Assembly: GCF_947492645.1 (NCBI RefSeq)
Contig: NZ_CANLMZ010000013.1
Location: 10,195-74,194 of the forward strand
Length of the DNA: 64,000 nucleotides
Source: an uncultured Pontibacter sp.
GTDB taxonomy: Bacteria; Bacteroidota; Bacteroidia; Cytophagales; Hymenobacteraceae
Reading direction: 5' to 3'
The notes beneath the pieces are model-generated. The model did no database searches, was not told the origin of the DNA, and worked only from the letters and a program-made list of their open reading frames with translations. Every line of letters starts with the position of its first letter. Position 1 is the stretch's first letter. Position numbers and translations under genes: made by a program. Of the stretch, positions 35,504 through 58,230 are shown one piece after another.

Positions 35504-36619
35504 ATGAAAACTATACAACTAATAAAAAGCCACATTGGTGGACGATCTGAGCAGCAAGACTCGAGCAATTCAGAGAGAGTACAAACAAAAATTGGCCGGC
35601 TACTTTTAATTGCCGATGGAATGGGTGGGCATAATGGAGGGAGTATAGCATCAAAAAAAGCTATTGAAGTTGTTTTAGATACTGTAAATAATTGTGAAGT
35701 CTCATTATCTGCATCAGATTGTTTAGTAAACAGTATTTGCAAGGCCAATGAAGCTATATATAATACTGCTCAAGAGGACCCAGCTTTAAAAGGTATGGGT
35801 ACAACCATAGTAGCTTTATTACTAACTGACGAATCTGCTATTCTTTGTCATGTAGGAGATAGCAGGATATATCATATAAGAGGTAATTCTATCCAGTTTA
35901 AGACTCAGGACCATTCTTGGGTAGGGGAGATGGTGAAAAATGGGCTTCTCAGCGAACAAGAAGCTCAACATCATGAAAAGTCAAATATTATAACTAGAGC
36001 TTTAGGCATAAGCTCGACTGTACAGGTTGACTCACATACAATAACAGACCTACAGGAAGAAGATATGTTTCTTCTATGCTCTGATGGAATAACTGGTGCT
36101 TTAGATGATGCTACGCTAGTTCAGGTACTCAATTCGAAAGAACATTTAGAGGATTGCTTAGACCACATTATTTCTGTTGTAGATAATGTAGGCCAATCTA
36201 AGGGCGGTGGACATGACAACATGACTATTGGTGTCTTGAAGATTAAGAAATTAGAGAAAAACCAAGCAAATCTTAAGACACGAATTATTCCAGAGCAGGA
36301 TGGTGGATCTTCACCTGAAAAGGCTGGCATTAACAAAAAGCTACTTGTAACACTCATTTTTTTAGCTGTTCTGTTAAGCTGTATCAGCTTCTACTTAGGG
36401 TACCAAAATGGAGCTCCTGAAGCCAGCCTGAATAATAATGAGCAGACTGATGAGAAGCGAAGTGAGTTAACTACGCCTGTACAAGATAAGGAAGATAATG
36501 ATCTGCCCACGGATAGAAAAGCGGTAGATAAAAATACCTCTCAACATGCCATTATACCTTCAAACGAAACACAAAAGACGACAGTTGAATCAAACCCAAC
36601 TGTAAATAATGCAGAGTAA
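35504..36619 (+). CDS. PP2C-family Ser/Thr protein phosphatase with C-terminal membrane anchor
   Basis: 371 aa with ADGMGGHNGGSIASKKA, GTTIVALL, HVGDSRIY, LCSDGITG and HDNMT. It has a hydrophobic helix LLVTLIFLAVLLSCISFYLGY and then a polar tail. Confidence 0.9.
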   Translation: MKTIQLIKSHIGGRSEQQDSSNSERVQTKIGRLLLIADGMGGHNGGSIASKKAIEVVLDTVNNCEVSLSASDCLVNSICKANEAIYNTAQEDPALKGMGTTIVALLLTDESAILCHVGDSRIYHIRGNSIQFKTQDHSWVGEMVKNGLLSEQEAQHHEKSNIITRALGISSTVQVDSHTITDLQEEDMFLLCSDGITGALDDATLVQVLNSKEHLEDCLDHIISVVDNVGQSKGGGHDNMTIGVLKIKKLEKNQANLKTRIIPEQDGGSSPEKAGINKKLLVTLIFLAVLLSCISFYLGYQNGAPEASLNNNEQTDEKRSELTTPVQDKEDNDLPTDRKAVDKNTSQHAIIPSNETQKTTVESNPTVNNAE

Positions 36620-36623
36620 TCTA

Positions 36624-38333
36624 ATGACAACAGACTTACTAATTCCTAATTATAACCTTCTGCGTGTAATAGGCGAAGGGGGCATGGCCACAGTGTACCT
36701 TGGCGAACACGCTCATCTGGGTAATAAGGTGGCTATCAAGGTGCTCAACTCCCACTACGCTCGGCACCAGCAGGTGCGAAGTCGCTTTTTGACGGAGGCC
36801 AAAGTGCTGGCCTCCTTTCAGCACCCGCACATTGTAGGCGTAAAAGACTTCTACGAAGAAGGCGATACGCTGGCTTTTGTCATGGATTATGTTGAAGGAC
36901 TTCCCCTTGATGAGTACCTCTACACTCACAATGCCCTGCGTGATCCGGCTAAAGCCATTGTTTTCTTTTCACAGATGCTGGATGCCTTCAGCTATGCCCA
37001 CCAAAAGGGGGTAGTGCACCGTGACATCAAGCCCGGCAATCTGATGGTAACACAGGACGGACAAGTGCGGGTGTTGGACTTTGGGATTGCTAAATTATTG
37101 GAAACGCAAGTAGGTGCGGCTAAGGCCACTGCCACCGGCACGATGCTAGGCACGCCGATGTACATGAGCCCGGAGCAGATCAACTTAAAGTCAGGCGAAA
37201 GCATTGACCACCGCAGTGACATCTACGCGTTAGGGGTGACGCTGCATCAGATTCTCTCAGGTCGTCCGCCCTACGATGCTGACACCCATTCAGGCTTTGA
37301 GATGCAGATGAAAATCATGACTGAGCCCCTGTCTCGCCTGGAACAAGTGCCCGAGTGGCTGCAGCAGGTTGTAGACAAGGCCACAGCTAAGATAAGAGAC
37401 GATCGTTTCCAGAGCTGCTCTGAATTCCTGCAAGCGCTTAGAAGAGAAACAGGCGCTAGCATAGTAGAGCAGCCAGTGTTCAAGCCTGTCTATAATGAAA
37501 CTCCTAGAGTGGAGGCTAAGACAGTTGTAAGTACGCCAGAGCAGCAGAAGACACATTTAACTGCTGTTCCTCAAGTAACACAAATACTTGAAAAGCCACA
37601 GACCACGCAGTTTATCGCCCCTGCCCAACCAACCAAAGCAGTAGAGCAGAAGGCGGGACTGGATCTAAATAAATTCGGTAAAGAGCCTGATAAAAAGAGT
37701 AACACTTTGTCTTGGGTCATAGCAGTTTTAGTTATAGTCATTGGTGGTATCATTTGGGGAGTTAGTGTAATGTCTGGTAGTTCATCTTATTCTGGTTCAG
37801 AGACTGTGATAAGTGATGAGACCTGGGTTGAAGAGACTATAATTGAAGATACAACAGCTATTGAAGTGGATGAAGTAAAAGTTGTTGAAGCTGAACCTTT
37901 TGTAGTTGGTAAATCAGTAGTTGAAAAAGCTTTCCTACAGTACTTACCTGACATTTCTGGAGGAAGAAACCTTTTGGAGTTAGAAGCTTACGAAGGGAAA
38001 AAATACAAAATTTTAGTTGGCGATTTAAATGGCGATGGCCTGCAGGATGGTATAGTTGATTACTCTCTTGAACCAACATTTGAAGATACTGGCGGAGGAA
38101 ATGCAATTGGCGCACTACCGGGGCTAGTAGCATTCATCAATACTGGTAATAAATTGACTATTGCTGATCATTCAGAAGAATTTAATTACATGTATAAAAT
38201 ATCGAAAATTAATAATGGGGTTATCTTTCTTGAAGGGTTCGAATATGCAGAGGATGACGCAAGGTGCTGTCCTTCAATTGAAGTAACTAAGAAGCTTGTA
38301 CTTCGAAATGATAAGTTAACATCATTAGATTAA
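36624..38333 (+). CDS. Hanks-type Ser/Thr protein kinase 1 (TM plus extracytoplasmic FG-GAP-like domain)
   Basis: GEGGMATVY, VAIKVL, HRDIKPGN, DFGIAK and MYMSPEQ, with TM helix WVIAVLVIVIGGIIWGV and a C-terminal domain containing VGDLNGDGLQDGIVD. The start is set to the ATG at 36624 (MTTDLLIPNY), as in the three paralogues. Confidence 0.9.
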   Translation: MTTDLLIPNYNLLRVIGEGGMATVYLGEHAHLGNKVAIKVLNSHYARHQQVRSRFLTEAKVLASFQHPHIVGVKDFYEEGDTLAFVMDYVEGLPLDEYLYTHNALRDPAKAIVFFSQMLDAFSYAHQKGVVHRDIKPGNLMVTQDGQVRVLDFGIAKLLETQVGAAKATATGTMLGTPMYMSPEQINLKSGESIDHRSDIYALGVTLHQILSGRPPYDADTHSGFEMQMKIMTEPLSRLEQVPEWLQQVVDKATAKIRDDRFQSCSEFLQALRRETGASIVEQPVFKPVYNETPRVEAKTVVSTPEQQKTHLTAVPQVTQILEKPQTTQFIAPAQPTKAVEQKAGLDLNKFGKEPDKKSNTLSWVIAVLVIVIGGIIWGVSVMSGSSSYSGSETVISDETWVEETIIEDTTAIEVDEVKVVEAEPFVVGKSVVEKAFLQYLPDISGGRNLLELEAYEGKKYKILVGDLNGDGLQDGIVDYSLEPTFEDTGGGNAIGALPGLVAFINTGNKLTIADHSEEFNYMYKISKINNGVIFLEGFEYAEDDARCCPSIEVTKKLVLRNDKLTSLD

Positions 38334-38382
38334 TCAATACATATAGCTCCTTTCTATAAATTATTTTAAGAAAAATAATTAC

Positions 38383-40035
38383 ATGACAACAGACTTACTG
38401 ATTCCTAACTATAACCTTCTTCGCGTGATAGGCGAAGGTGGCATGGCCACCGTGTATCTGGGCGAACATGCCAGGCTTGGTAACAAAGTAGCTATTAAAG
38501 TACTCAACTCCCACTACGCCCGCCACGAGCAGGTGCGCAGCCGCTTTTTGACCGAAGCGAAAGTGCTGGCTTCATTTCAACACCCGCACATTGTGGGGGT
38601 AAAAGACTTTTTTGAAGAAGGTGATGTGCTGGCCTTTGTGATGGATTATGTAGAAGGACTACCGCTGGATGAGTACCTCTACACCCACAACGCCTTGCGT
38701 GATCCAGCTAAAGCCATTGCCTTTTTTTCGCAGATACTCGATGCCTTCAGTTATGCGCACCAAAATGGAATAGTGCACCGCGACATCAAGCCTGGCAACC
38801 TGATGGTAACACAGGACGGACAAGTGCGCGTGTTAGACTTTGGCATCGCCAAGCTGCTGGAGACACCGGTAGGCGCGGCCAAGGCCACAGCTACCGGTAC
38901 CATGCTAGGTACACCCATGTACATGAGCCCGGAGCAGATCAATTTAAAGCCAGGCGAGAGCATCGACCACCGTAGTGACATCTATGCGCTGGGCGTAACG
39001 CTGCACCAGATTCTCTCCGGCCGTCCGCCTTATGATGCTGATACCCATTCGGGCTTTGAAATGCAGCTAAAGATTATGACTGAACCCCTGCCACGATTAG
39101 AACATGTGCCAAACTGGCTGCAGCAGGTGGTAGATAAAGCTACAGCTAAGAAAAGAGAAGATCGTTTCCAGAGCTGCTCTGAATTTCTGCAAGCACTGAA
39201 AAGAGAAATAGGTGCTAGCAAAGAAGAGCAGCCAGTGTTCAAGCCTGTCTACAACAAAGCTTCAAGAGTAGAAGCCAAGACAGTGGCAATTGCCCCAGAG
39301 CAGCAAAAAACACAGATTGCTTCAGTCCCACAAGCCACACAAATACTTGAAAAGCCACAGACCACGCAGTTTATCTCTCCGGCTGCGGAGACCAAAGTAG
39401 TAGAACAGAAGGCGGGTTTAGATATAAGTAAGTTAGGTAAAGAGCCGGAAGAAAAAAGTAAAGCAATTTTATGGATCGGTCTTGCCTTGTTGTTAACAGT
39501 CATCTGCGTTGTAATGTGGCGAGTTATGATGAATGATGAGGAGTTCACTATTCAAGATGAACCTTTTGTCGTATCAAAAACAGTTGTCGATGACTCTTTT
39601 GTACAATATCATCCAGATCCTAATTTGTACTCAAGTCATTTTAAAGAACTGCTGCCCAAAGGTTATGACATTGGTATTGGTGATATTAATAAAGACAGTT
39701 TAGAAGATGGAGTAATAGCATACAACTACAAACAATATGCTGGATATAATGACACAATTCCTTCGCGGTTATTTGGTGTCTTGGCTATGATTAATAACGG
39801 AAGTTATTTAGTAGAATATGATAATTCATCTGAACTTTTTGAAAACGGTAAATACATGTTTCTCTTAAAGAAGTTAGCAAAAGTTGAAAATGGAATAATT
39901 TTTTTAGAAGGAATTGAAGTTGATAATATGAGAGGTGATATAAGAACTGCAAAGCTTGAAGTTGTTTTACGCGATAACAAATTATTCCGCCAAAAATGGT
40001 CTACAAAAATTAGAGGTAATTGGAGAAATAGATAG
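38383..40035 (+). CDS. Hanks-type Ser/Thr protein kinase 2 (TM plus diverged extracytoplasmic domain)
   Basis: The kinase motifs are the same as in kinase 1. It has a TM helix LWIGLALLLTVICVVMW and a C-terminal domain with IGDINKDSLEDGVIA. Confidence 0.9.
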   Translation: MTTDLLIPNYNLLRVIGEGGMATVYLGEHARLGNKVAIKVLNSHYARHEQVRSRFLTEAKVLASFQHPHIVGVKDFFEEGDVLAFVMDYVEGLPLDEYLYTHNALRDPAKAIAFFSQILDAFSYAHQNGIVHRDIKPGNLMVTQDGQVRVLDFGIAKLLETPVGAAKATATGTMLGTPMYMSPEQINLKPGESIDHRSDIYALGVTLHQILSGRPPYDADTHSGFEMQLKIMTEPLPRLEHVPNWLQQVVDKATAKKREDRFQSCSEFLQALKREIGASKEEQPVFKPVYNKASRVEAKTVAIAPEQQKTQIASVPQATQILEKPQTTQFISPAAETKVVEQKAGLDISKLGKEPEEKSKAILWIGLALLLTVICVVMWRVMMNDEEFTIQDEPFVVSKTVVDDSFVQYHPDPNLYSSHFKELLPKGYDIGIGDINKDSLEDGVIAYNYKQYAGYNDTIPSRLFGVLAMINNGSYLVEYDNSSELFENGKYMFLLKKLAKVENGIIFLEGIEVDNMRGDIRTAKLEVVLRDNKLFRQKWSTKIRGNWRNR

Positions 40036-40159
40036 CTTTTGATTTTTTTTGATAAACATAACTTATTATATGTTAATGGTTATGCCTAATTAAAATTAAA
40101 GGTCTCAAAAAAAATATCAATTAAAATAATACCGAATCTTTTCGGTAATAAATAACTCT

Positions 40160-41611
40160 ATGACAACAGACTTACTGATTCCTAGCTATAATATTCTGCG
40201 CGTGATAGGTGAGGGGGGCATGGCAACCGTGTACCTGGGCGAGCACGCCAGGCTAGGCAACAAAGTAGCCATCAAAGTGCTTAACTCTCACTATGCCCGC
40301 CACGAGCAGGTGCGTGGCCGCTTTCTGACGGAAGCTAAAGTGCTGGCTTCATTTCTGCATCCGCACATTGTAGGGGTGAAAGACTTTTTTGAAGAAGGTG
40401 ATGTGCTGGCCTTTGTGATGGATTATGTAGAAGGACTACCGCTGGATGAGTACCTCTACACCCACAACGCCTTGCGTGATCCAGCTAAAGCCATTGCCTT
40501 TTTTTCGCAGATACTCGATGCCTTCAGTTATGCGCACCAAAATGGAATAGTGCACCGCGACATCAAGCCCGGCAACCTGATGGTAACACAGGACGGACAA
40601 GTGCGGGTATTGGACTTTGGGATTGCTAAACTTTTGGAAACACCGGTAGGCGCGGCCAAGGCCACAGCTACCGGTACCATGCTAGGCACACCCATGTACA
40701 TGAGCCCGGAGCAGATCAATTTAAAACCAGGAGAGAGCATCGACCACCGCAGCGACATCTACGCACTAGGGGTAACGTTGCACCAGATCCTTTCAGGTCG
40801 TCCGCCCTATGATGCTGATACCCACTCAGGCTTTGAGATGCAGATGAAGATCATGACTGAGCCCCTGCCTCGGTTAGAACAAGTGCCCGAGTGGTTGCAG
40901 CAGGTAGTAGACAAGGCCACAGCTAAGAAAAGAGAAGACCGCTTTCAGAACTGCTCGGAGTTTCTGCAGGCGCTCAAAATAGAAACTGGCAACTTTAATG
41001 TAACAGGCTCCAAGCAGGATGAGCAACCAGTGTTCAAGACTGTCTACAACGAAGCAGCAAAAGTAGAAGCCAAGACTGTGGTAAGTACGCCAAGGCAGCA
41101 GAAGACACAGATTGCTGCTGCGCCACAAGTCACGCAAATACTTGAAAAGCCTCAGACCACGCAGTTTATTCCTCCGGCACAGGCAACTAAAGTTGTTGAG
41201 TCAAAGCCAGATCAGCAAATTGAGGAAGAATCAAGTCCACTGTCAGAGAAGATATTACTAGGTGTACTTGCCTTATTTGGAGTAGCATGGCTTTTATTAC
41301 AATTTGTCGCAGATCTTAGAGCTGAATCCCTAAATGAAATCTATAATCTTTATGGAGGGTTACCAAATTATGTCCTAAATGTTTATTTATCAAATATATA
41401 TCCTTTTGATAGTCCAGCTGTTTACTATAGTACAGAAATTATATTCCTAACGGGTATAATATTCACGCTTGCTTATTCGGCAATTCCTTTTGTAAGTAAT
41501 GAACCTGATGAAAATAAGTATTGGGAGGCACTTAAACTTTTTGGTGCGCTACATTTTTTCGGCGGACCATTGATAAGTGGTGTTATTTTAATTTTAAAAA
41601 TTTTGATATAG
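40160..41611 (+). CDS. Hanks-type Ser/Thr protein kinase 3 (multi-pass membrane C-terminus)
   Basis: The kinase motifs are the same. The C-terminus is replaced by about 3-4 hydrophobic helices (ILLGVLALFGVAWLLLQF, IIFLTGIIFTLAYSAIPF, FGGPLISGVILILKILI). Confidence 0.9.
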   Translation: MTTDLLIPSYNILRVIGEGGMATVYLGEHARLGNKVAIKVLNSHYARHEQVRGRFLTEAKVLASFLHPHIVGVKDFFEEGDVLAFVMDYVEGLPLDEYLYTHNALRDPAKAIAFFSQILDAFSYAHQNGIVHRDIKPGNLMVTQDGQVRVLDFGIAKLLETPVGAAKATATGTMLGTPMYMSPEQINLKPGESIDHRSDIYALGVTLHQILSGRPPYDADTHSGFEMQMKIMTEPLPRLEQVPEWLQQVVDKATAKKREDRFQNCSEFLQALKIETGNFNVTGSKQDEQPVFKTVYNEAAKVEAKTVVSTPRQQKTQIAAAPQVTQILEKPQTTQFIPPAQATKVVESKPDQQIEEESSPLSEKILLGVLALFGVAWLLLQFVADLRAESLNEIYNLYGGLPNYVLNVYLSNIYPFDSPAVYYSTEIIFLTGIIFTLAYSAIPFVSNEPDENKYWEALKLFGALHFFGGPLISGVILILKILI

Positions 41612-41630
41612 ATTTTGATTGTAAACCTCT

Positions 41631-43355
41631 ATGACAACAGACTTACTAATTCCCAATTATAACATCCTTCGAACTATTGGTGAAGGTGGCATGGCCACCG
41701 TGTACTTAGGCGAGCACGCCCGGCTGGGCAACAAGGTAGCCATCAAAGTGCTTAACTCTCACTATGTCCGTCACGAGCAGGTACGTAGCCGCTTTCTAAC
41801 AGAAGCTAAAGTACTGGCTTCGTTTCAGCACTCGCACATTGTAGGCGTAAAAGACTTTTTTGAAGAAGGTGATGTGCTGGCTTTTGTCATGGATTATGTG
41901 GAAGGGCTTCCCTTAGACGAATACCTTTATACTCACAACGCCTTGCGTGACCCGTCTAAAGCCATTGCCTTTTTTTCGCAGATGCTCGACGCCTTCAGCT
42001 ACGCCCATCAGAAAGGAGTAGTGCACCGCGACATCAAGCCCGGCAACCTGATGGTAACACAAGACGGACAGGTTAGAGTATTGGACTTTGGGATTGCTAA
42101 ACTGCTAGAAACACCAGTAGGAGCAGCCAAGGCAACAGCTACAGGCACGATGCTAGGCACGCCGATGTATATGAGCCCAGAGCAGATCAACTTAAAGCCA
42201 GGCGAGAGCATCGATCACCGCAGCGATATTTATGCGCTGGGCGTGACGCTGCACCAGATCCTTTCAGGTCGTCCGCCCTATGATGCTGATACCCACTCAG
42301 GCTTTGAAATGCAGCTAAAGATCATGACTGAACCCCTGCCACGCCTAGAGCAGGTGCCCGAGTGGTTGCAGAAGGTGGTAGACAAAGCTACAGCCAAGAA
42401 AAGAGAAGATCGTTTTCAAAGCTGTAATGATTTTCTACAGGCACTCAAAAGAGAAACTCCATCTAGCAAAGTAGAGCAGCCAGTTTTTAAGCCTGTTTAT
42501 AATGAAACTCCTAGAGTGGAGGCTAAGACAGTGGTAAGTACGCCTGACCAACAGAAGACGCAAGTAGCTGCTGCAGCGCAGGCCACACAAATACTCGAAA
42601 AGCCACTAACTACTCAATTTTTCTCTCCCGCTGCCGCGACCAAAGCAGTAGAACAGAAGGCGGGACTGGATCTAAATAAATTCGGTAGAGAGCCTAAGAA
42701 AAAAAGTAATTCCTTATACTGGATCATAGCAATTTTAGTGGTAGTTATTGGTGGTTTTATTTGGGGATCTATTGCAATGTCTGGTAACTCACCTTATTCT
42801 GATTCAGAGACTATAATAAGTGATGAGACCTTGGTTGAAGAGACCATAATTGAAGATACAACAGCTATCGAAGTGGATACTACTGCCGTACCAGAGGAGG
42901 TAACTGCTGTAGAAGAGCCCTTTGTTGTAACTAAATCAGTTGTTGGAGCTGCTTTTGAGGATGTGATATTTTCCATTTCTGGTGGGTTTCAAGTTCACCA
43001 ACTGAGAAGAGTTCATGGTAATGGAAAGAGGTACAAAGCAATTGTAGGGGACATAAATGGCGATGGCCTGCAAGATGGTATAGTTGATTGTTCACTTATG
43101 ACTTTTTCTTCTACCCAAGAAGGAGTGGATGGTTCTTCAATTCTTGTTGCCTTTATTAATACAGGCAAGGCATTAGTCATGGTCGATTATTCAAGAGAAG
43201 AAATGAGTCAAGGCTTTGTTTTGCAGAATATTAAAAACGGAGTGATTAACCTTAAAGGAGAAATATACATAGCAGCAAATGAGTCACCATCTAAAACTAT
43301 AATAGTCAACAGACAAGTTATACTAGATAATAACAAACTCACAATTGTTGAATAG
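41631..43355 (+). CDS. Hanks-type Ser/Thr protein kinase 4 (TM plus FG-GAP-like domain related to kinase 1)
   Basis: The kinase motifs are the same. It has TM helix WIIAILVVVIGGFIWGS, and its C-terminal domain shares SETIISDETLVEETIIEDTTAIEVD and VGDINGDGLQDGIVD with kinase 1. Confidence 0.9.
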   Translation: MTTDLLIPNYNILRTIGEGGMATVYLGEHARLGNKVAIKVLNSHYVRHEQVRSRFLTEAKVLASFQHSHIVGVKDFFEEGDVLAFVMDYVEGLPLDEYLYTHNALRDPSKAIAFFSQMLDAFSYAHQKGVVHRDIKPGNLMVTQDGQVRVLDFGIAKLLETPVGAAKATATGTMLGTPMYMSPEQINLKPGESIDHRSDIYALGVTLHQILSGRPPYDADTHSGFEMQLKIMTEPLPRLEQVPEWLQKVVDKATAKKREDRFQSCNDFLQALKRETPSSKVEQPVFKPVYNETPRVEAKTVVSTPDQQKTQVAAAAQATQILEKPLTTQFFSPAAATKAVEQKAGLDLNKFGREPKKKSNSLYWIIAILVVVIGGFIWGSIAMSGNSPYSDSETIISDETLVEETIIEDTTAIEVDTTAVPEEVTAVEEPFVVTKSVVGAAFEDVIFSISGGFQVHQLRRVHGNGKRYKAIVGDINGDGLQDGIVDCSLMTFSSTQEGVDGSSILVAFINTGKALVMVDYSREEMSQGFVLQNIKNGVINLKGEIYIAANESPSKTIIVNRQVILDNNKLTIVE

Positions 43356-43430: not shown

Positions 43431-46400
43431 ATGAAAAAATATATTATAGGTCGCTTAGATGAGAGCGATATAGCCATAAACAACCCAACAGTATCAAGAA
43501 CTCATGCTGTTCTGATTTTATATCCAGATTCGACTTTTGAAATCCAAGATCAAAACTCTACTAATGGTGTAATGATCAATGGTAAAAAGATTGGCTCTTC
43601 TAAAGTAAATTTTGCTGATGAGATTAAGCTAGGCTCTCATAAAGTTGACTTGAACCAACTGTTACAGCTGTGTAATAAAAAAGAAGCTGAAAGAGCTGAA
43701 AGACTCCGTCAAGCAGAGCTACAAGTAGAAGCTAAAAAAAACCAAGACTTAGAGGCTGAGCTAAAGCAACGGGCTGAAGAAGCTGCTGCAGCGGAGAAGA
43801 AAAAAATAGAAATCGATGAACGAATAAAAGCTATTGCGCAAAAGCTACATGACGGAGAAAGTCTAACAGTACTGGCAGATGCGCAATTTTATAGTAGCTA
43901 TAAAAAAGAAGTAGATGCCTACGTTAATATTCTATATACCCAGGCTCAAAAAGCGGCTGCCATACTTCATCAGCAACAACAAGAAGAGCAAGCCAAGCAG
44001 TTTGAGATTGAAAAAAGAAAAAGAGAAGAAGATGAATTGTTGCTGTTTTTGAAAAAGCAGAAACAACAGCATGAAGTTGATCTATATTCAGCTCATTTAG
44101 ATAATGTGCTAGGTGCTGAACCAAGCTCAGCAGTATCAGATGAGTTTGATCTATATAATACGAAGCGAACTCTGCCCGCCTATCTAAAGGTCGGAGATTA
44201 TAAACTGCACGATTCGGTTTTCCCTTTTTGTATTCAATTTAATGATACAAAGAGAGGTATAACTTTATCTGCAGATGGCTCAAAATCAAATGATCTTTTA
44301 GAGAATATTATTTTCAGGCTTATAGCTTCTAATACTCCTAAAAAGACTCTTGTTAAAATAGTAGATACTGAGAAAAAGGGGTTGGCATTCTCAAATTTAG
44401 TGGCGCTTAGTCCAAAGGTTATTGGGAACGATGTATTGGATACGACTCAGGAAATTGATCAATTTTTCGATGAATCAATAAAGAAATCTGGTGAACTGGT
44501 ACTAAGTATATTAAAGAACCAGTACACCAACATAGCTACTTTTAACAAAGAGAATCCTGATATGGCATTGCCGGTAACTCTTTTGGCAATTTCTAACTTC
44601 CCATCAGGTTTCGATCGTGAGAGAACTAAGAAACTGCTTGAGCTGCTTAAAATTGGCAATAGGGTAGGGCTATATGCCTTCATTAGTATAAATAAACCTG
44701 CTCTGGAAGATTGGAAGACAAAGCACCAGGATCTGCAACCACTTGTAGACGAGTTATTCCAAAACTTCTTAACGATAGAGCAAAATACTGTTTCAGAATA
44801 TTCAACTGATCTATATCCTTCTGCAAACTATACTGTAAGCTATAACACATTACCACAAATACAGCATTTAATAAACAACATTAATGAAGAGGTAAACAAA
44901 GTAGTTACGCTTAAGGTAGATCTTAATAAGCGCTTGGGCGACTACTGGCAGGAAGACTCTTCTTATGGTGTGAAAATACCTGTTGGACAAACAGGAATGA
45001 ATGTACAACATTTCGAACTTGGTGGTGAAAGTAATGTTCATCATGCGCTTATAGGTGGTGCAACAGGTTTTGGTAAATCTGTGCTCTTACACAACATAAT
45101 TGTAAATGGAGCGCATCTCTATTCTCCAGACAATCTACAATTTATTTTACTTGACTATAAAGAGGGCACAGAATTCAAGCTATACTTAGACTTGCCACAT
45201 GCTAAGATTTTATCTATTGGTAGTGAGCGAGAATATGGTCTGAGTGTTTTCGAATACCTGGTAGAGGAAATTAAGAATAGGGGTGAAAAGTTTAGAGAGG
45301 CAGGAGTTGCTAACATTGGCGATTATCGGAAGGCTACTGGCGAAAGTATGCCACGGTTTTTAGTTGTGATAGATGAATTTCAGGTTTTGCTTTCAGGAAA
45401 GGACAATGTTAGTAACCAATCAAGTAGCCTGTTAGAAGATTTATCAAAGAGAGGTAGGTCATTTGGCATTAATCTTCTCCTATCATCTCAGACTTTAGCT
45501 GATGTGGAAGTTAGTACTTCTACAAAAAGCAACATAGGCTTAAGAATTGCGCTCAAATTAAACGAAAGCGATTGTGATAGAATTTTACATTACGAGAACA
45601 CTTTGCCATCTACCTTTAGTAGAGCAGGCCAAGCGGTTTATAATGATAGGAATGGTTTAAAAGTAGGTAATACAGAGTTTCAAGTTGCTTACTTATCTAA
45701 TGATGAGTTAAAAGAGAAGGTTACCAGAATTGCGGATGAGTACGCTAAAGTAGGTAGTTCTGCAGTAGAGAAGTTTGTTTATGATGGTACCATCAATGCA
45801 ACTGTTAACGATAACCTTGCTCTATCTGAAGCTATTGGAAATGATGCATTTGTACCGAATGATGTTATTTCAGATATATACATAGGTGAACCATCTTACC
45901 TCTCGAAGCAAAGTGTAAAAGTGAGGATAAAGAGAGAGCCACAGTCAAATGTTTTAGTCTTAGGACAGGATAGTGCTTCTGTAGTTTCTATTTTTTACAA
46001 TTCCTTCTATCAGCTAATAAAGCAGAGCTCTCCTGAGAGTGAGTTTTATCTATTCGATTTGTTTAATATAGATTCAGGCTTTAAGGGGCAGCTAGACGGA
46101 CTTAAGGATTTAGGCGATGTAAAGTTATTTAGCAGAAGCAGAAACATCGAGGAAGTTGTAGAGCGCGTTTACGAAGAATTGCAAAAGCGCATAAGTGATG
46201 ATGACGAAGGTAGTAAGAGAATTTGTATTGGTATTACAAATGCTCAATCAGCCAGAGAGCTCCGAAAAGCGGACTGGGATGTACCGCAGGTAACACAGCA
46301 ACTAATTAAGTTAATGAAAGATGGGCCAGATTTCGGAATACACATCTTTATGCATTACTACTCTTATGCGTCTTTCAGAGAAATTTTCGATACTAATGTT

Positions 46401-46559
46401 ATCAATGAGTTTGAAAACATCATTGCTTTAAAAGGTGATGATTCTACTGAAGTCTTTGACTTCTCTGCTAAGCCTGTTACTCAGGAAAGAATTGGCCAAA
46501 TAAAGTACCCACACGGGAAGTACAAAATTGAAGGTTTCAGAATTTACAATAAAATATAA
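43431..46559 (+). CDS. FHA domain + coiled coil + FtsK/SpoIIIE-family P-loop ATPase (EssC/EccC-like multi-module layout, no TM helix seen)
   Basis: 1042 aa. The FHA domain is at aa 1-75 (IGRLDESDIAINNPTVSRTHAVL...DQNSTNGVMINGKKI), followed by an E/K/A/Q-rich coiled coil at aa 80-215. Canonical Walker A IGGATGFGKS (nt 45054-45080) and Walker B RFLVVIDEF (nt 45357-45380) sit in FtsK context (HHALIGGATGFGKSVLLHNII...ILLDYKEG). Flanking modules have degenerate P-loops (LSADGSKSNDLL, VLVLGQDSASVV). Confidence 0.85.
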   Translation: MKKYIIGRLDESDIAINNPTVSRTHAVLILYPDSTFEIQDQNSTNGVMINGKKIGSSKVNFADEIKLGSHKVDLNQLLQLCNKKEAERAERLRQAELQVEAKKNQDLEAELKQRAEEAAAAEKKKIEIDERIKAIAQKLHDGESLTVLADAQFYSSYKKEVDAYVNILYTQAQKAAAILHQQQQEEQAKQFEIEKRKREEDELLLFLKKQKQQHEVDLYSAHLDNVLGAEPSSAVSDEFDLYNTKRTLPAYLKVGDYKLHDSVFPFCIQFNDTKRGITLSADGSKSNDLLENIIFRLIASNTPKKTLVKIVDTEKKGLAFSNLVALSPKVIGNDVLDTTQEIDQFFDESIKKSGELVLSILKNQYTNIATFNKENPDMALPVTLLAISNFPSGFDRERTKKLLELLKIGNRVGLYAFISINKPALEDWKTKHQDLQPLVDELFQNFLTIEQNTVSEYSTDLYPSANYTVSYNTLPQIQHLINNINEEVNKVVTLKVDLNKRLGDYWQEDSSYGVKIPVGQTGMNVQHFELGGESNVHHALIGGATGFGKSVLLHNIIVNGAHLYSPDNLQFILLDYKEGTEFKLYLDLPHAKILSIGSEREYGLSVFEYLVEEIKNRGEKFREAGVANIGDYRKATGESMPRFLVVIDEFQVLLSGKDNVSNQSSSLLEDLSKRGRSFGINLLLSSQTLADVEVSTSTKSNIGLRIALKLNESDCDRILHYENTLPSTFSRAGQAVYNDRNGLKVGNTEFQVAYLSNDELKEKVTRIADEYAKVGSSAVEKFVYDGTINATVNDNLALSEAIGNDAFVPNDVISDIYIGEPSYLSKQSVKVRIKREPQSNVLVLGQDSASVVSIFYNSFYQLIKQSSPESEFYLFDLFNIDSGFKGQLDGLKDLGDVKLFSRSRNIEEVVERVYEELQKRISDDDEGSKRICIGITNAQSARELRKADWDVPQVTQQLIKLMKDGPDFGIHIFMHYYSYASFREIFDTNVINEFENIIALKGDDSTEVFDFSAKPVTQERIGQIKYPHGKYKIEGFRIYNKI

Positions 46560-46581: not shown

Positions 46582-46869
46582 ATGTCACATATTTCCTTAT
46601 CACCTGCCGAGCTTGAGTCTATCATAACTAAGATCAGTAGTTTTAAACAAAACTTCGAAACTGATATTAAGAAAATCAAATCTTATTCTGAAGGCTTAAG
46701 TCAATCATGGAAAGATCCACAGTACCCTATCTTCAAGGGTGAGATCAATAGTTTCTACAACGTTTGTCACAATCAAATTGAGACCCTACATAGGTTGGAG
46801 TCAAACTTGAGATCTTTAAAGAAACAAAGTGAAGAAGCAATTAAAATTGCTAAGCAGTTTGGACGCTAG
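46582..46869 (+). CDS. WXG100/ESAT-6-like small helical protein (W-K-D variant)
   Basis: 95 aa from the ATG at 46582 (the ORF-track start 46528 overlaps the ATPase). It begins ISLSPAELESIITKISSF and has W43 in SQSWKDPQY at the centre of two predicted helices. This matches WXG100 proteins in length, in Trp position and in placement right after an FtsK/SpoIIIE ATPase. Confidence 0.55.
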   Translation: MSHISLSPAELESIITKISSFKQNFETDIKKIKSYSEGLSQSWKDPQYPIFKGEINSFYNVCHNQIETLHRLESNLRSLKKQSEEAIKIAKQFGR

Positions 46870-46923
46870 AATAAACATTACTTGTGAGTCTTTGGAATAA
46901 GAAGTAATACAAAGTACATAAAT

Positions 46924-46958
46924 AAAATAGCCAGGTATAAATTAGACCTGGCTATTTT
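46924..46958 (+). terminator. rho-independent terminator closing the kinase/ATPase block
   Basis: 13-bp perfect stem aaaatagccaggt / acctggctatttt with a 9-nt loop. The T-run is built into the 3' arm and continues as gttt. Confidence 0.8.
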
Positions 46959-47030
46959 GTTTACACGGTTTATATTAAACCTATGCATTTCTATTTATCC
47001 TTTCTTATAGTCCTTTAGGTAATATTAAAA

Positions 47031-47693
47031 ATGACAAAGAGGTTATACTTGATTATAATAGCTTCACTATTAATCTTTTTATCTATAAGTTATGGCTTAC
47101 ATTCTTTAGGGTATGTAAACATTCACTACACTAAAAATGATAACTTGTTTTTCGAAGGTAAAATAGCGCTTGTGCCCTTTGGAGAAATTAGAAACTCTGA
47201 AGTTCAGTATGTGAAGGCCCAGATTGAAAAGTTTTATGGATTTGAAGTTGATGTTTTAAATAGAGCTAAAATGCCAGCTAATGCTTTTTACAAGCCACGT
47301 AGCAGGTACAAGGCAAGTAAGGTATTAGATCATCTTATAGCCACTAAATCTGTAGAATATGATAAGGTTATTGCATTATCTAATGACGACATTTCTGCTA
47401 AAGTTAAAGGGTATAAAGACTGGGGAGTAATAGGACTCGCTTATCTGGGGAATTCAGCTTGCATTGTATCTACTTACAGGCTAGGAAAACAAAAAGTAAG
47501 TAGTGATAGATTTAAAAGTAGATTGGCAAAAGCTTCGTTGCATGAGCTAGGCCATACGTTGGGTTTGCCACACTGCGATAGAACTGATTACTGTTTTATG
47601 AATGATGCAAAAGGTAAAGTTTCAACGATTGATAGAGCAAATCTAACTTTATGTGATTACTGCCAAAAACAGATTCTGATCTATCAACTTTAA
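47031..47693 (+). CDS. archaemetzincin-type zinc metallopeptidase with N-terminal membrane anchor
   Basis: 220 aa. HELGHTLGLPHCDRTDYCFM-x17-CDYC fits the archaemetzincin signature HExxHxxGxxHC...CxM-x17-CxxC. The N-terminal hydrophobic helix is LYLIIIASLLIFLSISYGL. Confidence 0.8.
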   Translation: MTKRLYLIIIASLLIFLSISYGLHSLGYVNIHYTKNDNLFFEGKIALVPFGEIRNSEVQYVKAQIEKFYGFEVDVLNRAKMPANAFYKPRSRYKASKVLDHLIATKSVEYDKVIALSNDDISAKVKGYKDWGVIGLAYLGNSACIVSTYRLGKQKVSSDRFKSRLAKASLHELGHTLGLPHCDRTDYCFMNDAKGKVSTIDRANLTLCDYCQKQILIYQL

Positions 47694-47923: not shown

Positions 47924-48439
47924 TTGAAGAAGCTTATACTGTTCCTCGCACTATTACTAATAACATCATATTTAATGAAAGATTTTCTTCTGGAAAAGAG
48001 ATTATCTAGTGATGCTGTCATAGATAAACTTAGTATTGATAAATCTGAGAGAGAATTAAGTGTTTATTCTAAGGGCAAGCTACTTAAGACTTATTCAATA
48101 TCATTGGGTAAAGAGCCTATTGGAGATAAGCAGTTTGAAGGTGATAATAAAACTCCAGAAGGCTTATACTTTATAAACGGAAAGAACTCTCAAAGTAGTT
48201 ACTACAAAAATCTAGGCATTTCCTATCCTAACTCTGAGGATAGAAATGAAGCTAAGAAACTTAGTAAGTCAGCAGGCGGAGACATCAAGATTCATGGGTT
48301 GCCTAACAAATTGCCATTTCTTGGCCGATTGCACCGCATTACAGATTGGACTGCAGGATGTGTAGCAGTTACTAATGAAGAAATGGATGAGCTATTTAAT
48401 ACTGTAAAGATGGGTACACCTATTGAAATCAAGCCATAA
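47924..48439 (+). CDS. L,D-transpeptidase (YkuD/ErfK family)
   Basis: 171 aa with a TTG start and a signal/anchor helix. The catalytic block is IKIHGLPN...TAGCVAVTNEEMDELF (H-G...G-C). Confidence 0.8.
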   Translation: MKKLILFLALLLITSYLMKDFLLEKRLSSDAVIDKLSIDKSERELSVYSKGKLLKTYSISLGKEPIGDKQFEGDNKTPEGLYFINGKNSQSSYYKNLGISYPNSEDRNEAKKLSKSAGGDIKIHGLPNKLPFLGRLHRITDWTAGCVAVTNEEMDELFNTVKMGTPIEIKP

Positions 48440-53837: not shown

Positions 53838-53859
53838 ATATTTTTTAATATATTTGAGA

Positions 53860-53895: not shown

Positions 53896-53899
53896 TATC

Positions 53900-55423: not shown

Positions 55424-55428
55424 CCGAT

Positions 55429-58224: not shown

Positions 58225-58230
58225 GAAGGT

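What the first reader, a model, noticed from the sequence alone, without database searches (positions are those of the whole stretch)
36624..43355. Tandem four-fold kinase array with a constant kinase/juxtamembrane module and swapped sensor modules
All four genes start with the same atgacaacagacttact sequence. Their kinase domains are near-identical, as is the roughly 100-aa linker (EQPVFKPVYNE...QILEKPQTTQFI...VEQKAGLD). Past the TM helix they diverge sharply. Kinases 1 and 4 share an acidic stalk plus a GD(L/I)NGDGLQDG (FG-GAP/Ca-binding-like) domain. Kinase 2 has a strongly diverged version of it (GDINKDSLEDG). Kinase 3 replaces it with a multi-pass membrane domain. Base composition also switches within each gene, from a GC-richer constant part to an AT-rich variable part. 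This looks like a diversified receptor family feeding one output (the FHA ATPase) rather than simple redundancy.
Basis: seen in the sequence. Interest (0 to 1): 0.75.

Follow-up and report, generated by a model that had tools for sequence, protein, structure and literature searches.

The report
Four receptor kinases sharing one core
A Pontibacter-like bacterium carries four tandem membrane protein kinases with a nearly identical intracellular half and different outer halves, in one operon with a phosphatase, a phospho-threonine-reading secretion-type ATPase and a small WXG100-like protein; this looks like several sensors driving one type VII-like machine.

Summary
Four complete, co-oriented Hanks-type Ser/Thr kinase genes (36624-43355) share a kinase domain (93-97% aa identity) and a ~90-aa juxtamembrane linker. 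After the first TM helix they diverge. K1, K4 and K2 carry increasingly diverged versions of one ~145-aa beta-rich domain. K3 carries an orphan 3-TM tail.

The copies are old and not an assembly artefact. In the kinase domain dS is 0.5-1.3, dN ~0.03 and dN/dS ~0.03. There are also clear inter-paralogue gene-conversion tracts.

The array sits in a probable operon: PP2C, K1-K4, FHA-ATPase, WXG100-like. This lies in a low-GC island of a Pontibacter-like genome. The ATPase is of the EccC/EssC type, is soluble, and has one active P-loop and a canonical pThr-binding FHA.

The closest known systems are two: the phospho-regulated T7SS subtypes c-e of Gram-positives, and the 'mobile T7SS' (WXG plus YueA-like ATPase) noted in Bacteroidetes.

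Tandem kinases with a constant core and variable tails recur in other FHA/PP2C clusters, apparently also from Bacteroidota. The array type is therefore not unique, but this output module is.

'Many sensors, one FHA output' is plausible but untested.

A side finding remains unexplained. Only the repeated kinase modules use core-genome-like, GC-rich codons.

The parts
35504..36619 (+). PP2C/PPM phosphatase (371 aa) with one TM helix (aa 274-302) and a ~70-aa polar C-terminal tail. Its stop codon lies 4 nt before the K1 start.
   Evidence: Pfam PP2C_2 1.3e-14, PP2C 1.5e-9, SpoIIE 3.7e-7. TM helix by hydropathy. GC3 0.27-0.32.
36624..38333 (+). K1. Kinase aa 10-265 (36651-37418); juxtamembrane linker to aa ~357; TM aa 358-383; acidic stalk aa 384-422; canonical ectodomain aa 423-569 (37890-38330).
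   Evidence: Pkinase 7.3e-54. VAIK, HRDIKPGN, DFG and SPE motifs read directly. The ectodomain scores 191 bits against the lipoprotein-family HMM. AF2 pLDDT 91.
38383..40035 (+). K2. Same kinase and linker; TM aa 358-382; short stalk; diverged ectodomain aa 392-550 (39556-40032) that lacks the GGGGNAI and DDxRCCPS motifs.
   Evidence: Pkinase 3e-54. Ectodomain 44 bits, E 1e-9 at Z=1e6. It shares a 191-nt identical tract with K3.
40160..41611 (+). K3. Same kinase and linker (6-aa insertion before EQPVFK), followed by an orphan tail with three predicted TM helices (41237-41323, 41435-41497, 41537-41608).
   Evidence: Pkinase 1e-53. TM helices. No lipoprotein-domain signal in any frame. No homologue in 1.84 billion representatives. 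No Pfam hit.
41631..43355 (+). K4. Same kinase and linker; TM helix and acidic stalk like K1; ectodomain aa 428-574 (42912-43352) with the DxNxDGxxD loop retained but the CC motif lost.
   Evidence: Pkinase 1.3e-53. Ectodomain 57 bits, E 6.5e-14. DNA identity to K1 through the TM helix and stalk is 83-85%.
43431..46559 (+). FHA-ATPase (1042 aa). FHA aa 1-75; charged coiled-coil-like region aa 76-215; a single active FtsK/EssC-type P-loop domain (Walker A at 543, Walker B at 644) flanked by regions with no Walker A or B motif; no TM helix.
   Evidence: Pfam FtsK_SpoIIIE 3.5e-25 and FHA 1.1e-14. Best PDB matches are EccC 4nh0 (6e-30), EccC5 and YukB. The FHA aligns to Rv1747, GarA and EmbR with GR/SRxH/NG conserved. 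Motifs. No TM helix.
46582..46869 (+). WXG100-like helical hairpin protein (95 aa; the turn reads SWKDPQ rather than WxG).
   Evidence: Pfam WXG100 E 4.8e-5, 24 bits, below the cutoff of 27.3. AF2 predicts two helices, pLDDT 89. The top 36 PDB fold matches are all EsxA/EsxB/WXG100 proteins, TM-score 0.68-0.87.
46905..46977 (.). Long hairpin (36-nt arms, 78% complementary, 1-nt loop) directly after the WXG100-like gene; a candidate operon terminator.
   Evidence: Inverted repeat I1. No convincing + strand terminator inside the array.

Best explanation
K1-K4 are tandem paralogues of one PknB/StkP-like membrane Ser/Thr kinase. They lie inside a seven-gene operon (PP2C, K1, K2, K3, K4, FHA-ATPase, WXG100-like) in a low-GC accessory island of a Pontibacter-like Bacteroidota genome.

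Shown:
- The cytoplasmic half (kinase plus ~90-aa juxtamembrane linker) is kept almost invariant by strong purifying selection (dN/dS ~0.03 at dS ~1).
- It is also patched by occasional gene conversion between the copies.
- The periplasmic halves have diverged. K1 keeps the canonical form of a ~145-aa beta-rich, DxNxDGxxD-loop domain that otherwise occurs as stand-alone lipoproteins, apparently of Bacteroidota.
- K4 and K2 are derived versions of that domain that lack its CC and GGGGN motifs.
- K3 has exchanged it for an orphan 3-TM tail.

Inferred:
- The shared half is constant because all four copies must work with the same partners.
- Each kinase is switched on by a different envelope cue (K3 perhaps from within the membrane) and autophosphorylates Thr residues in the activation loop and in the conserved linker (TQIL, TTQF(I/F/V)).
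- The canonical FHA domain of the soluble EccC/EssC-type ATPase docks on these phospho-threonines.
- This brings the motor to the membrane or activates it to handle the WXG100-like protein. The single PP2C resets the system.
- The array would thus be a multi-input OR-gate on one type VII-like output.
For: Architecture and identity.

Selection: in the kinase dS is 0.53-1.28, dN 0.015-0.041 and omega 0.025-0.039. In the linker omega is 0.11-0.23. In the tails dN is 0.38-1.17.

Gene conversion: K2/K3 show a run of 40 concordant variable sites (permutation p<1e-4). K1/K4 show a run of 12 (p=0.001). All three 2+2 site patterns are present (19/19/32) and appear clustered in position.

Active kinase: all catalytic motifs are present. 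The best solved relatives are StkP, PknB and PknA.

Output module: the ATPase matches EccC/EccC5/YukB, has a single Walker A/B and no TM helix. Its FHA aligns with the pThr-binding FHAs of Rv1747, GarA and EmbR and keeps GR, SRxH and NG. The small protein has a WXG100 fold.

Operon: gaps are 4, 49, 124, 19, 75 and 22 nt. There is no convincing internal + strand terminator, and a hairpin follows the last gene.

Precedent: T7SSc/d/e of Gram-positives combine a membrane kinase (cytoplasmic N-terminal kinase, extracellular C-terminus), a PPM phosphatase and an ATPase whose FHA keeps the pThr motif (PMC11217815). The phosphorylated juxtamembrane domain of PknB binds the FHA protein FhaA, and the StkP JMD is phosphorylated (PMC12077195). 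In the alignment to StkP the match runs on into its JMD.

Generality: other FHA/PP2C clusters carry tandem kinases with 91-97% identical kinase domains and unrelated tails (L095: unknown/Sel1/TPR; L096; L014).
Against: - No phosphorylation, binding or secretion was tested. Every step after 'paralogous receptor kinases in one operon' rests on gene order and analogy.
- The ATPase has no TM helix, and no other T7SS membrane or outer-membrane component was found. A secretion function in a diderm is therefore uncertain.
- K4 and K2 lack the motifs conserved in the ectodomain family, and the K3 tail is an orphan. This could mean decay rather than new specificities.
- Synonymous sites in the tails are saturated, so positive selection on the sensors could not be assessed.
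- No related genome carries the locus, so copy-number or cassette variation could not be examined.
- The ligand of the ectodomain family is unknown, and the contexts of the stand-alone homologues are uninformative.
Confidence: 0.55

Rival explanations
1. Decaying redundancy. Only K1 is a real sensor kinase. K2-K4 are duplicates whose outer halves drift under relaxed constraint. Their kinase halves look constant mainly because gene conversion from a functional copy keeps overwriting them. No distinct inputs exist.
For: K1's ectodomain is 54-65% identical to most of the stand-alone lipoproteins (34-48% to the five most distant), but only 46% identical to K4 and 41% to K2. K4 and K2 lack the family's GGGGNAI and DDxRCCPS motifs. 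The K3 tail has no homologue anywhere and is T-rich. Gene-conversion tracts exist.
Against: All four ORFs are intact. Kinase dS of 0.5-1.3 with dN ~0.03 means each copy has accumulated many synonymous changes while rejecting replacements, which conversion alone cannot produce. Tail dN/dS for K1/K2/K4 is 0.27-0.33, not ~1. K2 and K4 ectodomains still match the family profile over its full length. The same constant-core, variable-tail arrays recur with clearly functional tails such as Sel1 and TPR in L095.
Confidence: 0.18
2. Structural scaffold rather than sensors. The four kinases are EssB/YukC-like membrane subunits of a type VII-like apparatus. Their different periplasmic parts build a heteromeric envelope structure. 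The constant cytoplasmic parts hold a hexameric, TM-less ATPase at the membrane through FHA contacts.
For: The topology (N-terminal kinase fold, one TM helix, outer domain) is that of EssB. EssB binds the FHA domains of EssC/YukB (PMC11217815 and PMC9600267). The ATPase has no TM helix of its own. The ectodomain model resembles about two propeller blades, a type of unit that can oligomerise (weak matches).
Against: Unlike EssB, the catalytic motifs are all intact, and a PP2C is present, which points to real phospho-signalling. No other apparatus components were detected. The fold matches are not significant.
Confidence: 0.12
3. Anti-phage or conflict module. The kinases are defence kinases of the PD-T4-6/Stk2 kind. 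Their varied outer parts detect different phages or envelope damage. The ATPase/WXG100 pair is the effector arm.
For: K1 scores 292 bits on PADLOC PD-T4-6 models and also hits mad6, Stk2 and PglW. The ATPase hits SspH and mad8. The operon lies in a low-GC island directly upstream of WYL, AAA_15 and type I R-M genes. Distant relatives of the ATPase sit with WXG100, E1/E2/JAB and Gln_amidase toxin genes. In E. faecalis, phage infection activates T7SS transcription, and PMC11217815 attributes this to the kinase IreK.
Against: The PADLOC hits are generic domain matches. The MADS gene set is absent. No relatives occur in viral contigs. No toxin or immunity genes are recognisable next to the operon. 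This rival is a statement about purpose and is compatible with the proposed mechanism.
Confidence: 0.12
4. Assembly duplication artefact: a single kinase gene collapsed or expanded by the assembler.
For: None beyond the repeated start sequence.
Against: The copies differ at 294 of 1032 aligned constant-region sites and have four different tails and four different intergenic spacers.
Confidence: 0.01

Closest known systems
Phospho-regulated type VII secretion subtypes T7SSc/d/e of Bacillota and Actinomycetota (Garrett & Palmer 2024, PMC11217815)
   Same: Shared parts list: an EssC/EccC-type ATPase whose N-terminal FHA keeps the pThr-binding residues, a WXG100 protein, a membrane Ser/Thr kinase with a cytoplasmic N-terminal kinase and an extracytoplasmic C-terminus, and a PPM phosphatase.
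   Different: The host is a diderm Bacteroidota (Pontibacter-like). The ATPase has no TM helices and only one active P-loop. No ubiquitin-like TsxB and none of the further membrane components were recognised. There are four paralogous kinases where that paper describes a single kinase component. ATPase identity to any database protein is 28% or less.
[quoted passage not shown] 2012, PMC3482391, Table 1 footnote 6)
   Same: A WXG100-like gene lies next to an FtsK/EssC-type ATPase with a single active central P-loop. The pair sits in an accessory island of a Bacteroidetes genome.
   Different: That description, as read, does not mention an FHA fusion, a PP2C or kinases. Here the ATPase is FHA-fused and embedded in a kinase/phosphatase operon.
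STK-FHA effector pairs such as PknF-Rv1747 (FHA-ABC transporter; the PknF-Rv1747 relationship is from my own knowledge), PknB JMD-FhaA (PMC12077195), and the threonine-phosphorylation control of T6SS (membrane kinase plus FHA protein in Agrobacterium, as cited in PMC11217815; PpkA/PppA/Fha1 from my own knowledge)
   Same: A membrane Hanks kinase, a PP2C and an FHA-bearing effector are encoded together. A phosphorylated juxtamembrane or substrate Thr is read by the FHA. FHA x3-ABC transporters of the Rv1747 kind sit next to related kinases in L025, L027, L030, L036 and L049.
   Different: The effector here is an EssC-like ATPase with a WXG100 partner. The input is a four-member paralogue array rather than one kinase.
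Tandem constant-core, variable-tail kinase arrays in other FHA/PP2C clusters, apparently Bacteroidota
   Same: Two to three adjacent kinases have 91-97% identical kinase domains and unrelated C-terminal parts. They sit next to PP2C and FHA proteins. In L095 and L014 the repeated modules also show raised GC3; in L096 the rise is only about +0.1.
   Different: Those kinases are only about 47-51% identical to the window's. Their FHA partners are proteases, DUF805 proteins or ABC transporters, not an EssC-like ATPase. None has four copies or the conserved long linker.
EssB/YukC pseudokinase of T7SSb
   Same: Membrane topology, and partnership with the FHA domains of the ATPase.
   Different: EssB is a pseudokinase and the EssC FHA domains lack the pThr site. 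Here both are catalytically and ligand competent by motif. No sequence similarity was tested or claimed.

Membership tests
Hanks-type (eukaryote-like) Ser/Thr protein kinase, PknB/StkP-like | Pkinase domain above the Pfam gathering score | tested here: met
   182-185 bits against a cutoff of 31.7 for all four. Best PDB relatives are StkP, PknB and PknA, E 1e-39 to 1e-52.
Hanks-type (eukaryote-like) Ser/Thr protein kinase, PknB/StkP-like | Catalytic residues present: Gly-rich loop, VAIK Lys, alpha-C Glu, HRDxKxxN, DFG, activation-loop Thr, SPE | tested here: met
   IGEGGMATVY, VAIK, TEAK, HRDIKPGN, DFG, ATATGTMLGT and MSPE are invariant in K1-K4 (read from the alignment).
Hanks-type (eukaryote-like) Ser/Thr protein kinase, PknB/StkP-like | Demonstrated phosphotransfer activity | not testable with these tools
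   Needs biochemistry.
Type VII secretion system (canonical T7SSa/b) | EccC/EssC-family FtsK/SpoIIIE ATPase | tested here: met
   Pfam FtsK_SpoIIIE 3.5e-25. Top PDB hits are EccC 4nh0, EccC5 and YukB.
Type VII secretion system (canonical T7SSa/b) | Adjacent WXG100 protein | tested here: inconclusive
   Pfam WXG100 scores 24.0 bits, below the cutoff of 27.3, and the turn is SWKDPQ, not WxG. However, the AF2 hairpin matches only EsxA/EsxB-type structures at the top (TM-score 0.68-0.87).
Type VII secretion system (canonical T7SSa/b) | ATPase anchored by TM helices; three nucleotide-binding domains | tested here: not met
   No TM segment. Only one Walker A and one Walker B.
Type VII secretion system (canonical T7SSa/b) | Further core membrane components (EccB/D/E and MycP, or EsaA/EssA/EssB, and ubiquitin-like EsaB) | tested here: not met
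   No such Pfam families in the operon or in the neighbours scanned. Distant versions could have been missed.
T7SSc/d/e-type phospho-regulated T7SS (PMC11217815) | FHA on the ATPase with the pThr-binding consensus, plus a membrane kinase with an extracytoplasmic C-terminus, plus a PPM phosphatase | tested here: met
   FHA 1.1e-14, and GR/SRxH/NG conserved in the alignment with Rv1747 FHA-1. Kinase topology. PP2C.
T7SSc/d/e-type phospho-regulated T7SS (PMC11217815) | Orthology of components to TsxA-J, and occurrence in Bacillota/Actinomycetota | tested here: not met
   The host is Pontibacter-like. The ATPase has no database relative above 28% identity. Direct comparison with Tsx proteins was not done.
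'Mobile T7SS' of Zhang et al. 2012 | Solo WXG gene next to a YueA-like ATPase in which only the central FtsK/HerA domain is active, outside Firmicutes/Actinobacteria | tested here: met
   Single Walker A (543) and Walker B (644), flanked by regions with no Walker A or B motif. WXG-like neighbour. The description is quoted. That the flanks are degenerate FtsK domains was not tested by profile.
FG-GAP / VCBS repeat (integrin-alpha-type propeller blade) | Match to the Pfam FG-GAP families above threshold | tested here: not met
   FG-GAP E 0.012-0.042, 14-16 bits against a cutoff of 22.1, covering only 11-13 residues.
FG-GAP / VCBS repeat (integrin-alpha-type propeller blade) | DxNxDGxxD calcium-loop motif and propeller-blade fold | tested here: inconclusive
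   The motif D-L-N-G-D-G-L-Q-D is present in K1 and K4 (D-I-N-K-D-S-L-E-D in K2). The AF2 model is one helix plus 8 strands. The best PDB matches are propeller blades (DDB1, LGI1 EPTP), but with E > 0.1 and TMq of 0.45 or less.
Uncharacterised lipoprotein domain family, apparently Bacteroidota (P0002-P0034; no Pfam entry) | Full-length match to a profile built only from the stand-alone lipoproteins | tested here: met
   K1 191 bits, K4 57 bits, K2 44 bits. K3 gives no match and P0001 is marginal at 13 bits.
MADS / PD-T4-6 / Stk2 defence systems | System-specific gene set (MAD6+7+8 with a methylase; or a stand-alone defence kinase) | tested here: not met
   Only generic kinase and FtsK-domain hits. 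MADS requires MAD6, MAD7 and MAD8, and no MAD7-like gene or operon arrangement is present here.

The most novel reading that the evidence does not exclude
The locus is a diderm, phospho-switched type VII-like module. A TM-less EssC-type motor is recruited to the membrane only when one of four receptor kinases phosphorylates its own conserved juxtamembrane linker. This would be an active-kinase counterpart of the fossilised EssB pseudokinase-EssC FHA contact of Firmicutes. The 'constant region' of the receptor family would be maintained by concerted evolution, which also drives its codon usage away from the rest of the island. That signature recurs in independent kinase arrays and may mark a general way in which bacteria build multi-input receptor families.
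Probability: 0.2. Interest if true: 0.8.

Novelty: new variant of a known kind. Interest (0 to 1): 0.55.

Why it matters
If the reading is right, it links three things that are usually studied apart.

1. Phospho-threonine/FHA control of type VII-like ATPases has so far only been proposed, from genomics, for Gram-positive subtypes. This locus would be a minimal version in a diderm.
2. It would show how a bacterium builds a multi-input receptor family on one signalling core, much like a small receptor-kinase family.
3. The conserved TQ-rich linker gives a concrete, testable docking site for the FHA domain.

The operon is compact: seven genes, one soluble motor and one small WXG100-like protein. 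It would therefore be a tractable system for asking how an FHA-bearing EssC-like ATPase is switched on.

The codon-usage contrast between repeated kinase modules and everything around them is a separate observation. It could be used to test GC-biased gene conversion versus selection in bacterial paralogues.

Tried and rejected
**Related strains or genomes**
- A scan of 185,579 species-representative genomes with K1 peptide patterns gave nothing above 39% identity.
- The metagenome scan gave nothing above 46%.
- The protein database gave only the four window kinases, then kinase-only hits of 53% identity or less.
- Copy number and cassette content in relatives could therefore not be compared.
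- The only other family member is a 1071-nt metagenome fragment (P0001/L094). It is as diverged from K1-K4 as they are from each other and carries yet another ectodomain variant.

**Other checks that led nowhere or were rejected**
- A look-up of the window's own contig by the ATPase found nothing on record.
- K3 tail as a frameshifted ectodomain: rejected. No profile signal in any frame and no DNA similarity to the other tails.
- K3 tail as a known sensor module: no Pfam hit and no homologue in 1.84 billion representatives.
- Function of the ectodomain from the gene context of stand-alone homologues: uninformative.
- Fold assignment of the ectodomain: no significant PDB match.
- MADS or other named defence systems: only generic domain hits.
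- Phage origin: no relatives of the ATPase and only remote kinases in viral contigs.
- Phase-variable cassette switching: no inverted repeats within the array, no recombinase in the neighbours scanned, and no tRNA in the window.
- 'Conserved domains are simply GC-richer' as the cause of the composition switch: not supported. The PP2C catalytic domain and the ATPase P-loop domain have GC3 of 0.27-0.29, and a non-repeated kinase-fold gene in L095 has 0.31.

Full report
**1. What is there**

Between 36624 and 43355 the + strand carries four complete ORFs: K1 (569 aa), K2 (550 aa), K3 (483 aa) and K4 (574 aa). All begin with ATGACAACAGACTTACT. The repeat finder recovers four copies with start-to-start spacings of 1759, 1777 and 1471 nt. 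Each scores 182-185 bits on Pfam Pkinase.

All four keep every catalytic motif of an active Hanks kinase: IGEGGMATVY, VAIK, HRDIKPGN, DFG, an ATATGT activation loop and SPE. Among solved structures the closest are StkP, PknB and PknA.

Each protein has the kinase at aa 10-265 and a linker of about 90 aa. A first TM helix follows at about aa 358-385. The kinase is therefore cytoplasmic and the remainder lies in or beyond the inner membrane.

**2. Constant and variable parts**

Kinase domains are 93-97% identical in protein. The linker EQPVFKPVYNE...QQKT...TQILEKPQTTQF... is shared by all four. Beyond it:
- K1 and K4 share the TM helix and an acidic Ser/Thr/Glu stalk (83-85% DNA identity), then an ectodomain that is 46% identical.
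- K2 diverges from about the TM helix onward.
- K3 diverges from about aa 343 and has three predicted TM helices and no ectodomain.

The boundary is thus nested rather than one fixed junction.

Nei-Gojobori estimates:

| Region | dS | dN | dN/dS |
|---|---|---|---|
| Kinase | 0.53-1.28 | 0.015-0.041 | 0.025-0.039 |
| Linker | – | – | 0.11-0.23 |
| Tails | saturated | 0.38-1.17 | – |

The copies are therefore old. Each is individually under strong purifying selection in its cytoplasmic half. They cannot be an assembly artefact.

**3. Gene conversion**

The constant region is a mosaic.
- K2 and K3 share a 191-nt identical tract, which spans 40 consecutive concordant variable sites (permutation p<1e-4).
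- K1/K4 share a run of 12 (p=0.001).
- All three possible 2+2 site patterns are frequent (19/19/32) and appear clustered in position.

Selection and occasional inter-paralogue conversion together keep the core constant.

**4. The outer halves**

The K1 ectodomain (aa 423-569) is 54-65% identical to most of a family of ~200-aa proteins, and 34-48% identical to its five most distant members. Most of these have a signal peptide followed by a cysteine, as in lipoproteins (my reading of the N-termini). One is annotated Ferruginibacter. None has a Pfam domain.

A profile built only from these stand-alone proteins scores K1 at 191 bits, K4 at 57 bits and K2 at 44 bits over its full length. It does not detect K3. 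K4 and K2 lack the family's GGGGNAI and DDxRCCPS motifs. So three of the four 'sensors' are one domain diverged in place, not swapped cassettes.

The K3 tail is a true replacement. It has no profile or DNA similarity in any frame, no Pfam hit, and no homologue among 1.84 billion representative proteins.

An AlphaFold2 model of the K1 ectodomain is confident (pLDDT 91; one helix plus eight strands). It has no significant match in the PDB. The best partial matches are propeller blades (DDB1, LGI1 EPTP; TMq 0.45 or less, E>0.1).

The DLNGDGLQD loop fits the DxNxDGxxD calcium-loop consensus of FG-GAP repeats (from my own knowledge). Pfam FG-GAP matches only 11-13 residues and stays below threshold.

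**5. Surroundings**

*Upstream.* A PP2C phosphatase (35504-36619) lies four bases upstream. It has one TM helix.

*Downstream ATPase.* 75 nt downstream lies a 1042-aa protein (43431-46559). It has the following parts:
- An N-terminal FHA domain.
- A charged, coiled-coil-like stretch.
- One FtsK/SpoIIIE P-loop domain with a single Walker A (543) and Walker B (644).
- No TM helix.

Its best solved relatives are the T7SS ATPases EccC (4nh0), EccC5 and YukB. Its FHA aligns with the pThr-binding FHAs of Rv1747, GarA and EmbR and keeps GR, SRxH and NG.

*WXG100-like gene.* Next comes a 95-aa protein (46582-46869). It scores just under the Pfam WXG100 cutoff and folds as a helical hairpin (pLDDT 89). 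Its top 36 PDB matches are all EsxA/EsxB/WXG100 proteins. A 36-nt-arm hairpin follows (46905-46977).

*Operon.* Gaps are short and no convincing internal + strand terminator is seen. I read this as one operon: PP2C, K1, K2, K3, K4, FHA-ATPase, WXG100-like.

**6. Host and island**

A GH92 protein of the window clusters at 90% identity or more with Pontibacter vulgaris and P. fetidus proteins. The first 26 kb have GC of 45-49% and GC3 around 0.5. From about 27 to 56 kb the GC falls to 32-38% (GC3 about 0.3). This stretch includes the PP2C and the ATPase.

Downstream are a WYL regulator, an AAA_15 ATPase and a type I R-M system. No tRNA gene lies in the window, and no integrase or recombinase was seen in the neighbours scanned.

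No representative genome, metagenome contig or database protein carries a close relative of the constant module. The one exception is a 1071-nt fragment (P0001/L094). It has the same linker, TM helix and stalk, a further ectodomain variant, and is about as diverged in DNA as the four paralogues are from each other. The locus is thus a rare accessory element, and the requested comparison with related strains could not be made.

**7. The array type recurs**

The nearest kinases are 47-53% identical in the kinase domain only. The few that carry names are from Bacteroidota lineages. They often lie in clusters with PP2C and several FHA proteins, and come as tandem paralogues.
- L095 has three kinases that are 92-97% identical in the kinase domain. 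Their tails are an unknown domain, Sel1 repeats and TPR repeats.
- L096 and L014 have pairs at 91%.
- In other loci the neighbouring FHA protein is a triple-FHA ABC transporter of the Rv1747 kind.

A constant core with variable tails is therefore a recurring design, which I did not find described in the papers searched. What is special here is four copies, the long conserved linker, and an EssC-like ATPase with a WXG100 partner as the FHA-bearing neighbour.

**8. How it most likely works**

*Shown:* paralogous, motif-intact membrane kinases with a shared cytoplasmic half; one PP2C; one FHA-bearing EssC-type ATPase; a WXG100-like protein; a tight gene arrangement.

*Inferred:* the shared half is constrained because all four kinases use the same phosphatase and the same FHA reader. 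The linker contains invariant Thr residues followed by a hydrophobic residue at +3 (T319-Q-I-L, T327-T-Q-F, T328-Q-F-I/F/V). This is a common FHA preference (my own knowledge).

Two precedents for phosphorylated juxtamembrane domains support this (PMC12077195):
- The StkP linker is phosphorylated.
- The PknB juxtamembrane domain binds the FHA protein FhaA.

I therefore propose the following sequence:
1. Activation of any of the kinases phosphorylates the linker.
2. The soluble ATPase docks on it through its FHA and is thereby brought to the membrane or activated.
3. The PP2C reverses this.

Garrett & Palmer (PMC11217815) proposed the same logic for T7SSc/d/e of Gram-positives. Those systems combine a membrane kinase, a PPM phosphatase and an FHA-ATPase with an intact pThr site. 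Zhang et al. (PMC3482391) had noted WXG plus YueA-like ATPase pairs with one active domain in Bacteroidetes as 'mobile versions of T7SS'. The window unites both descriptions.

*Unknown:* whether the module secretes anything across a diderm envelope. No further apparatus genes were recognised.

**9. Rivals**

- (a) K2-K4 are decaying duplicates kept similar by conversion. Intact ORFs, omega of 0.03 at dS of about 1, and tail omega of about 0.3 argue against this.
- (b) The kinases are EssB-like structural subunits rather than sensors. Intact catalytic motifs and the PP2C argue against this.
- (c) The purpose is anti-phage or interbacterial conflict. This is compatible with the mechanism and is suggested by the island context and generic PADLOC hits. 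No named system fits.
- (d) Assembly artefact. Excluded.

**10. Unexplained side finding**

Only the repeated kinase modules have high GC3 (0.53-0.62). Their codon choices resemble the core genome, in places more strongly (CTG, GGC, GCC, GTG and CAG; GTA stays at the core level). The summed distance to core usage is 3.5, against 7.0 to island usage.

By contrast, their own tails (0.29-0.30), the PP2C catalytic domain (0.27) and the ATPase P-loop domain (0.29) look like the island.

L095 shows the same contrast independently:

| L095 sequence class | GC3 |
|---|---|
| Repeated kinase modules | 0.66-0.68 |
| Other cluster genes | 0.37-0.41 |
| Non-repeated kinase-fold gene | 0.31 |
| Core genes | 0.56-0.71 |

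Over 96 kinase genes in the fetched loci, the kinase-minus-tail GC3 difference averages +0.08 for single kinases. It averages +0.25 for those with a paralogue 85% or more identical in the same locus. That group is only 11 genes from 4 loci. The Spearman correlation is 0.71 among genes with a paralogue, but the points are not independent.

Two explanations are candidates:
- GC-biased gene conversion among the paralogues.
- Selection for host-preferred codons confined to the constrained module.

The pattern is not a uniform GC shift (GTA, ACA and TTT are kept or raised). This speaks somewhat for selection or shared ancestry of codon choice. I could not decide between the two.

**11. Verdict**

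The locus is a new variant of known kinds: phospho-regulated T7SS-like modules, and kinase/PP2C/FHA clusters. Its interest is moderate to good, mainly as a compact and testable system.

Noticed in passing
window 36624-37433, 38383-39192, 40160-40969, 41631-42440; L095 10001-10810, 11665-12474, 19093-19900: Only the near-identical kinase modules have high GC3 (0.53-0.68) and core-genome-like codon usage. Their own tails, the PP2C, the FHA proteins and a non-repeated kinase-fold gene in the same clusters have GC3 of about 0.27-0.46. Across the fetched loci the kinase-minus-tail GC3 gap grows with paralogue identity. The cause could be GC-biased gene conversion or selection; it is unresolved.
   Followed up: partly
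window ~27000-56400: A low-GC island (GC 32-38%, GC3 ~0.3) sits in a 45-49% GC genome. No tRNA was found in the window and no integrase in the neighbours scanned. Most genes between 27 and 35 kb have no Pfam or PADLOC match; the exceptions are a transglutaminase-like gene (31060-32070) and a DUF2779 protein (32184-33995).
   Followed up: partly
window 56506-63851: In the type I R-M system, hsdM (GC3 0.70) and hsdR (GC3 0.61) are GC-rich. The specificity subunit (58231-59535, GC3 0.34) and an unknown gene (59576-60817, GC3 0.33) between them are AT-rich. This is another 'constant GC-rich, variable AT-rich' contrast in the same window.
   Followed up: no
window 52812-56436: A WYL/WCX regulator (- strand), an AAA_15/AAA_21 ATPase (507 aa) and a 335-aa protein with no Pfam match lie directly after the island. 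This is probably a defence gene pair.
   Followed up: no
window 31060-32070 and 48456-49472: Two transglutaminase-core proteins with hydrophobic N-termini, 50% identical over 300 aa, flank the kinase operon on either side. A YkuD L,D-transpeptidase (47924-48439) and an M54-like metallopeptidase (47031-47693) lie next to the downstream copy.
   Followed up: partly
window 23321-24250: A 309-aa FtsZ-like protein scores 191 bits on TIGR00065, below the 295-bit cutoff. It lies next to a 173-aa unknown gene and a histone-deacetylase-domain gene, and is probably a divergent FtsZ/tubulin paralogue rather than the division FtsZ.
   Followed up: no
window 37890-38330; P0002-P0034: The K1 ectodomain belongs to an undescribed family of ~200-aa lipoprotein-like proteins, apparently of Bacteroidota (GDLNGDxLxDxVVDYxLEPTxEDNGGGGNAI ... 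DDPRCCPS). The AF2 model is confident (pLDDT 91) and has no significant PDB match. This is a candidate new domain family.
   Followed up: partly
L094 (JGI 3300076144, Ga0620835_076413, 1071 nt): This is a fifth member of the kinase family from a metagenome. It has the same linker, TM helix and acidic stalk. Its ectodomain is longer and more diverged, retaining GDLNGDGLED. It is about 72-87% identical in DNA to K1-K4 in the constant part.
   Followed up: yes
L091 / L092 and L093: Distant relatives of the ATPase (24-25% identity) lie in clusters with WXG100, ThiF(E1)/E2-CBASS/JAB genes, a Gln_amidase toxin domain, Hsp70/GrpE/DnaJ and a resolvase or RepA_N. These look like mobile conflict or T7SS-like modules of other lineages.
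   Followed up: no
L025, L027, L030, L036, L049: Triple-FHA ABC transporters (~1100 aa; the Rv1747-like architecture but with three FHA domains) are encoded next to related kinases.
   Followed up: partly
window 46905-46977: A 36-nt-arm inverted repeat with a 1-nt loop lies right after the WXG100-like gene. It is a likely terminator of the operon.
   Followed up: no
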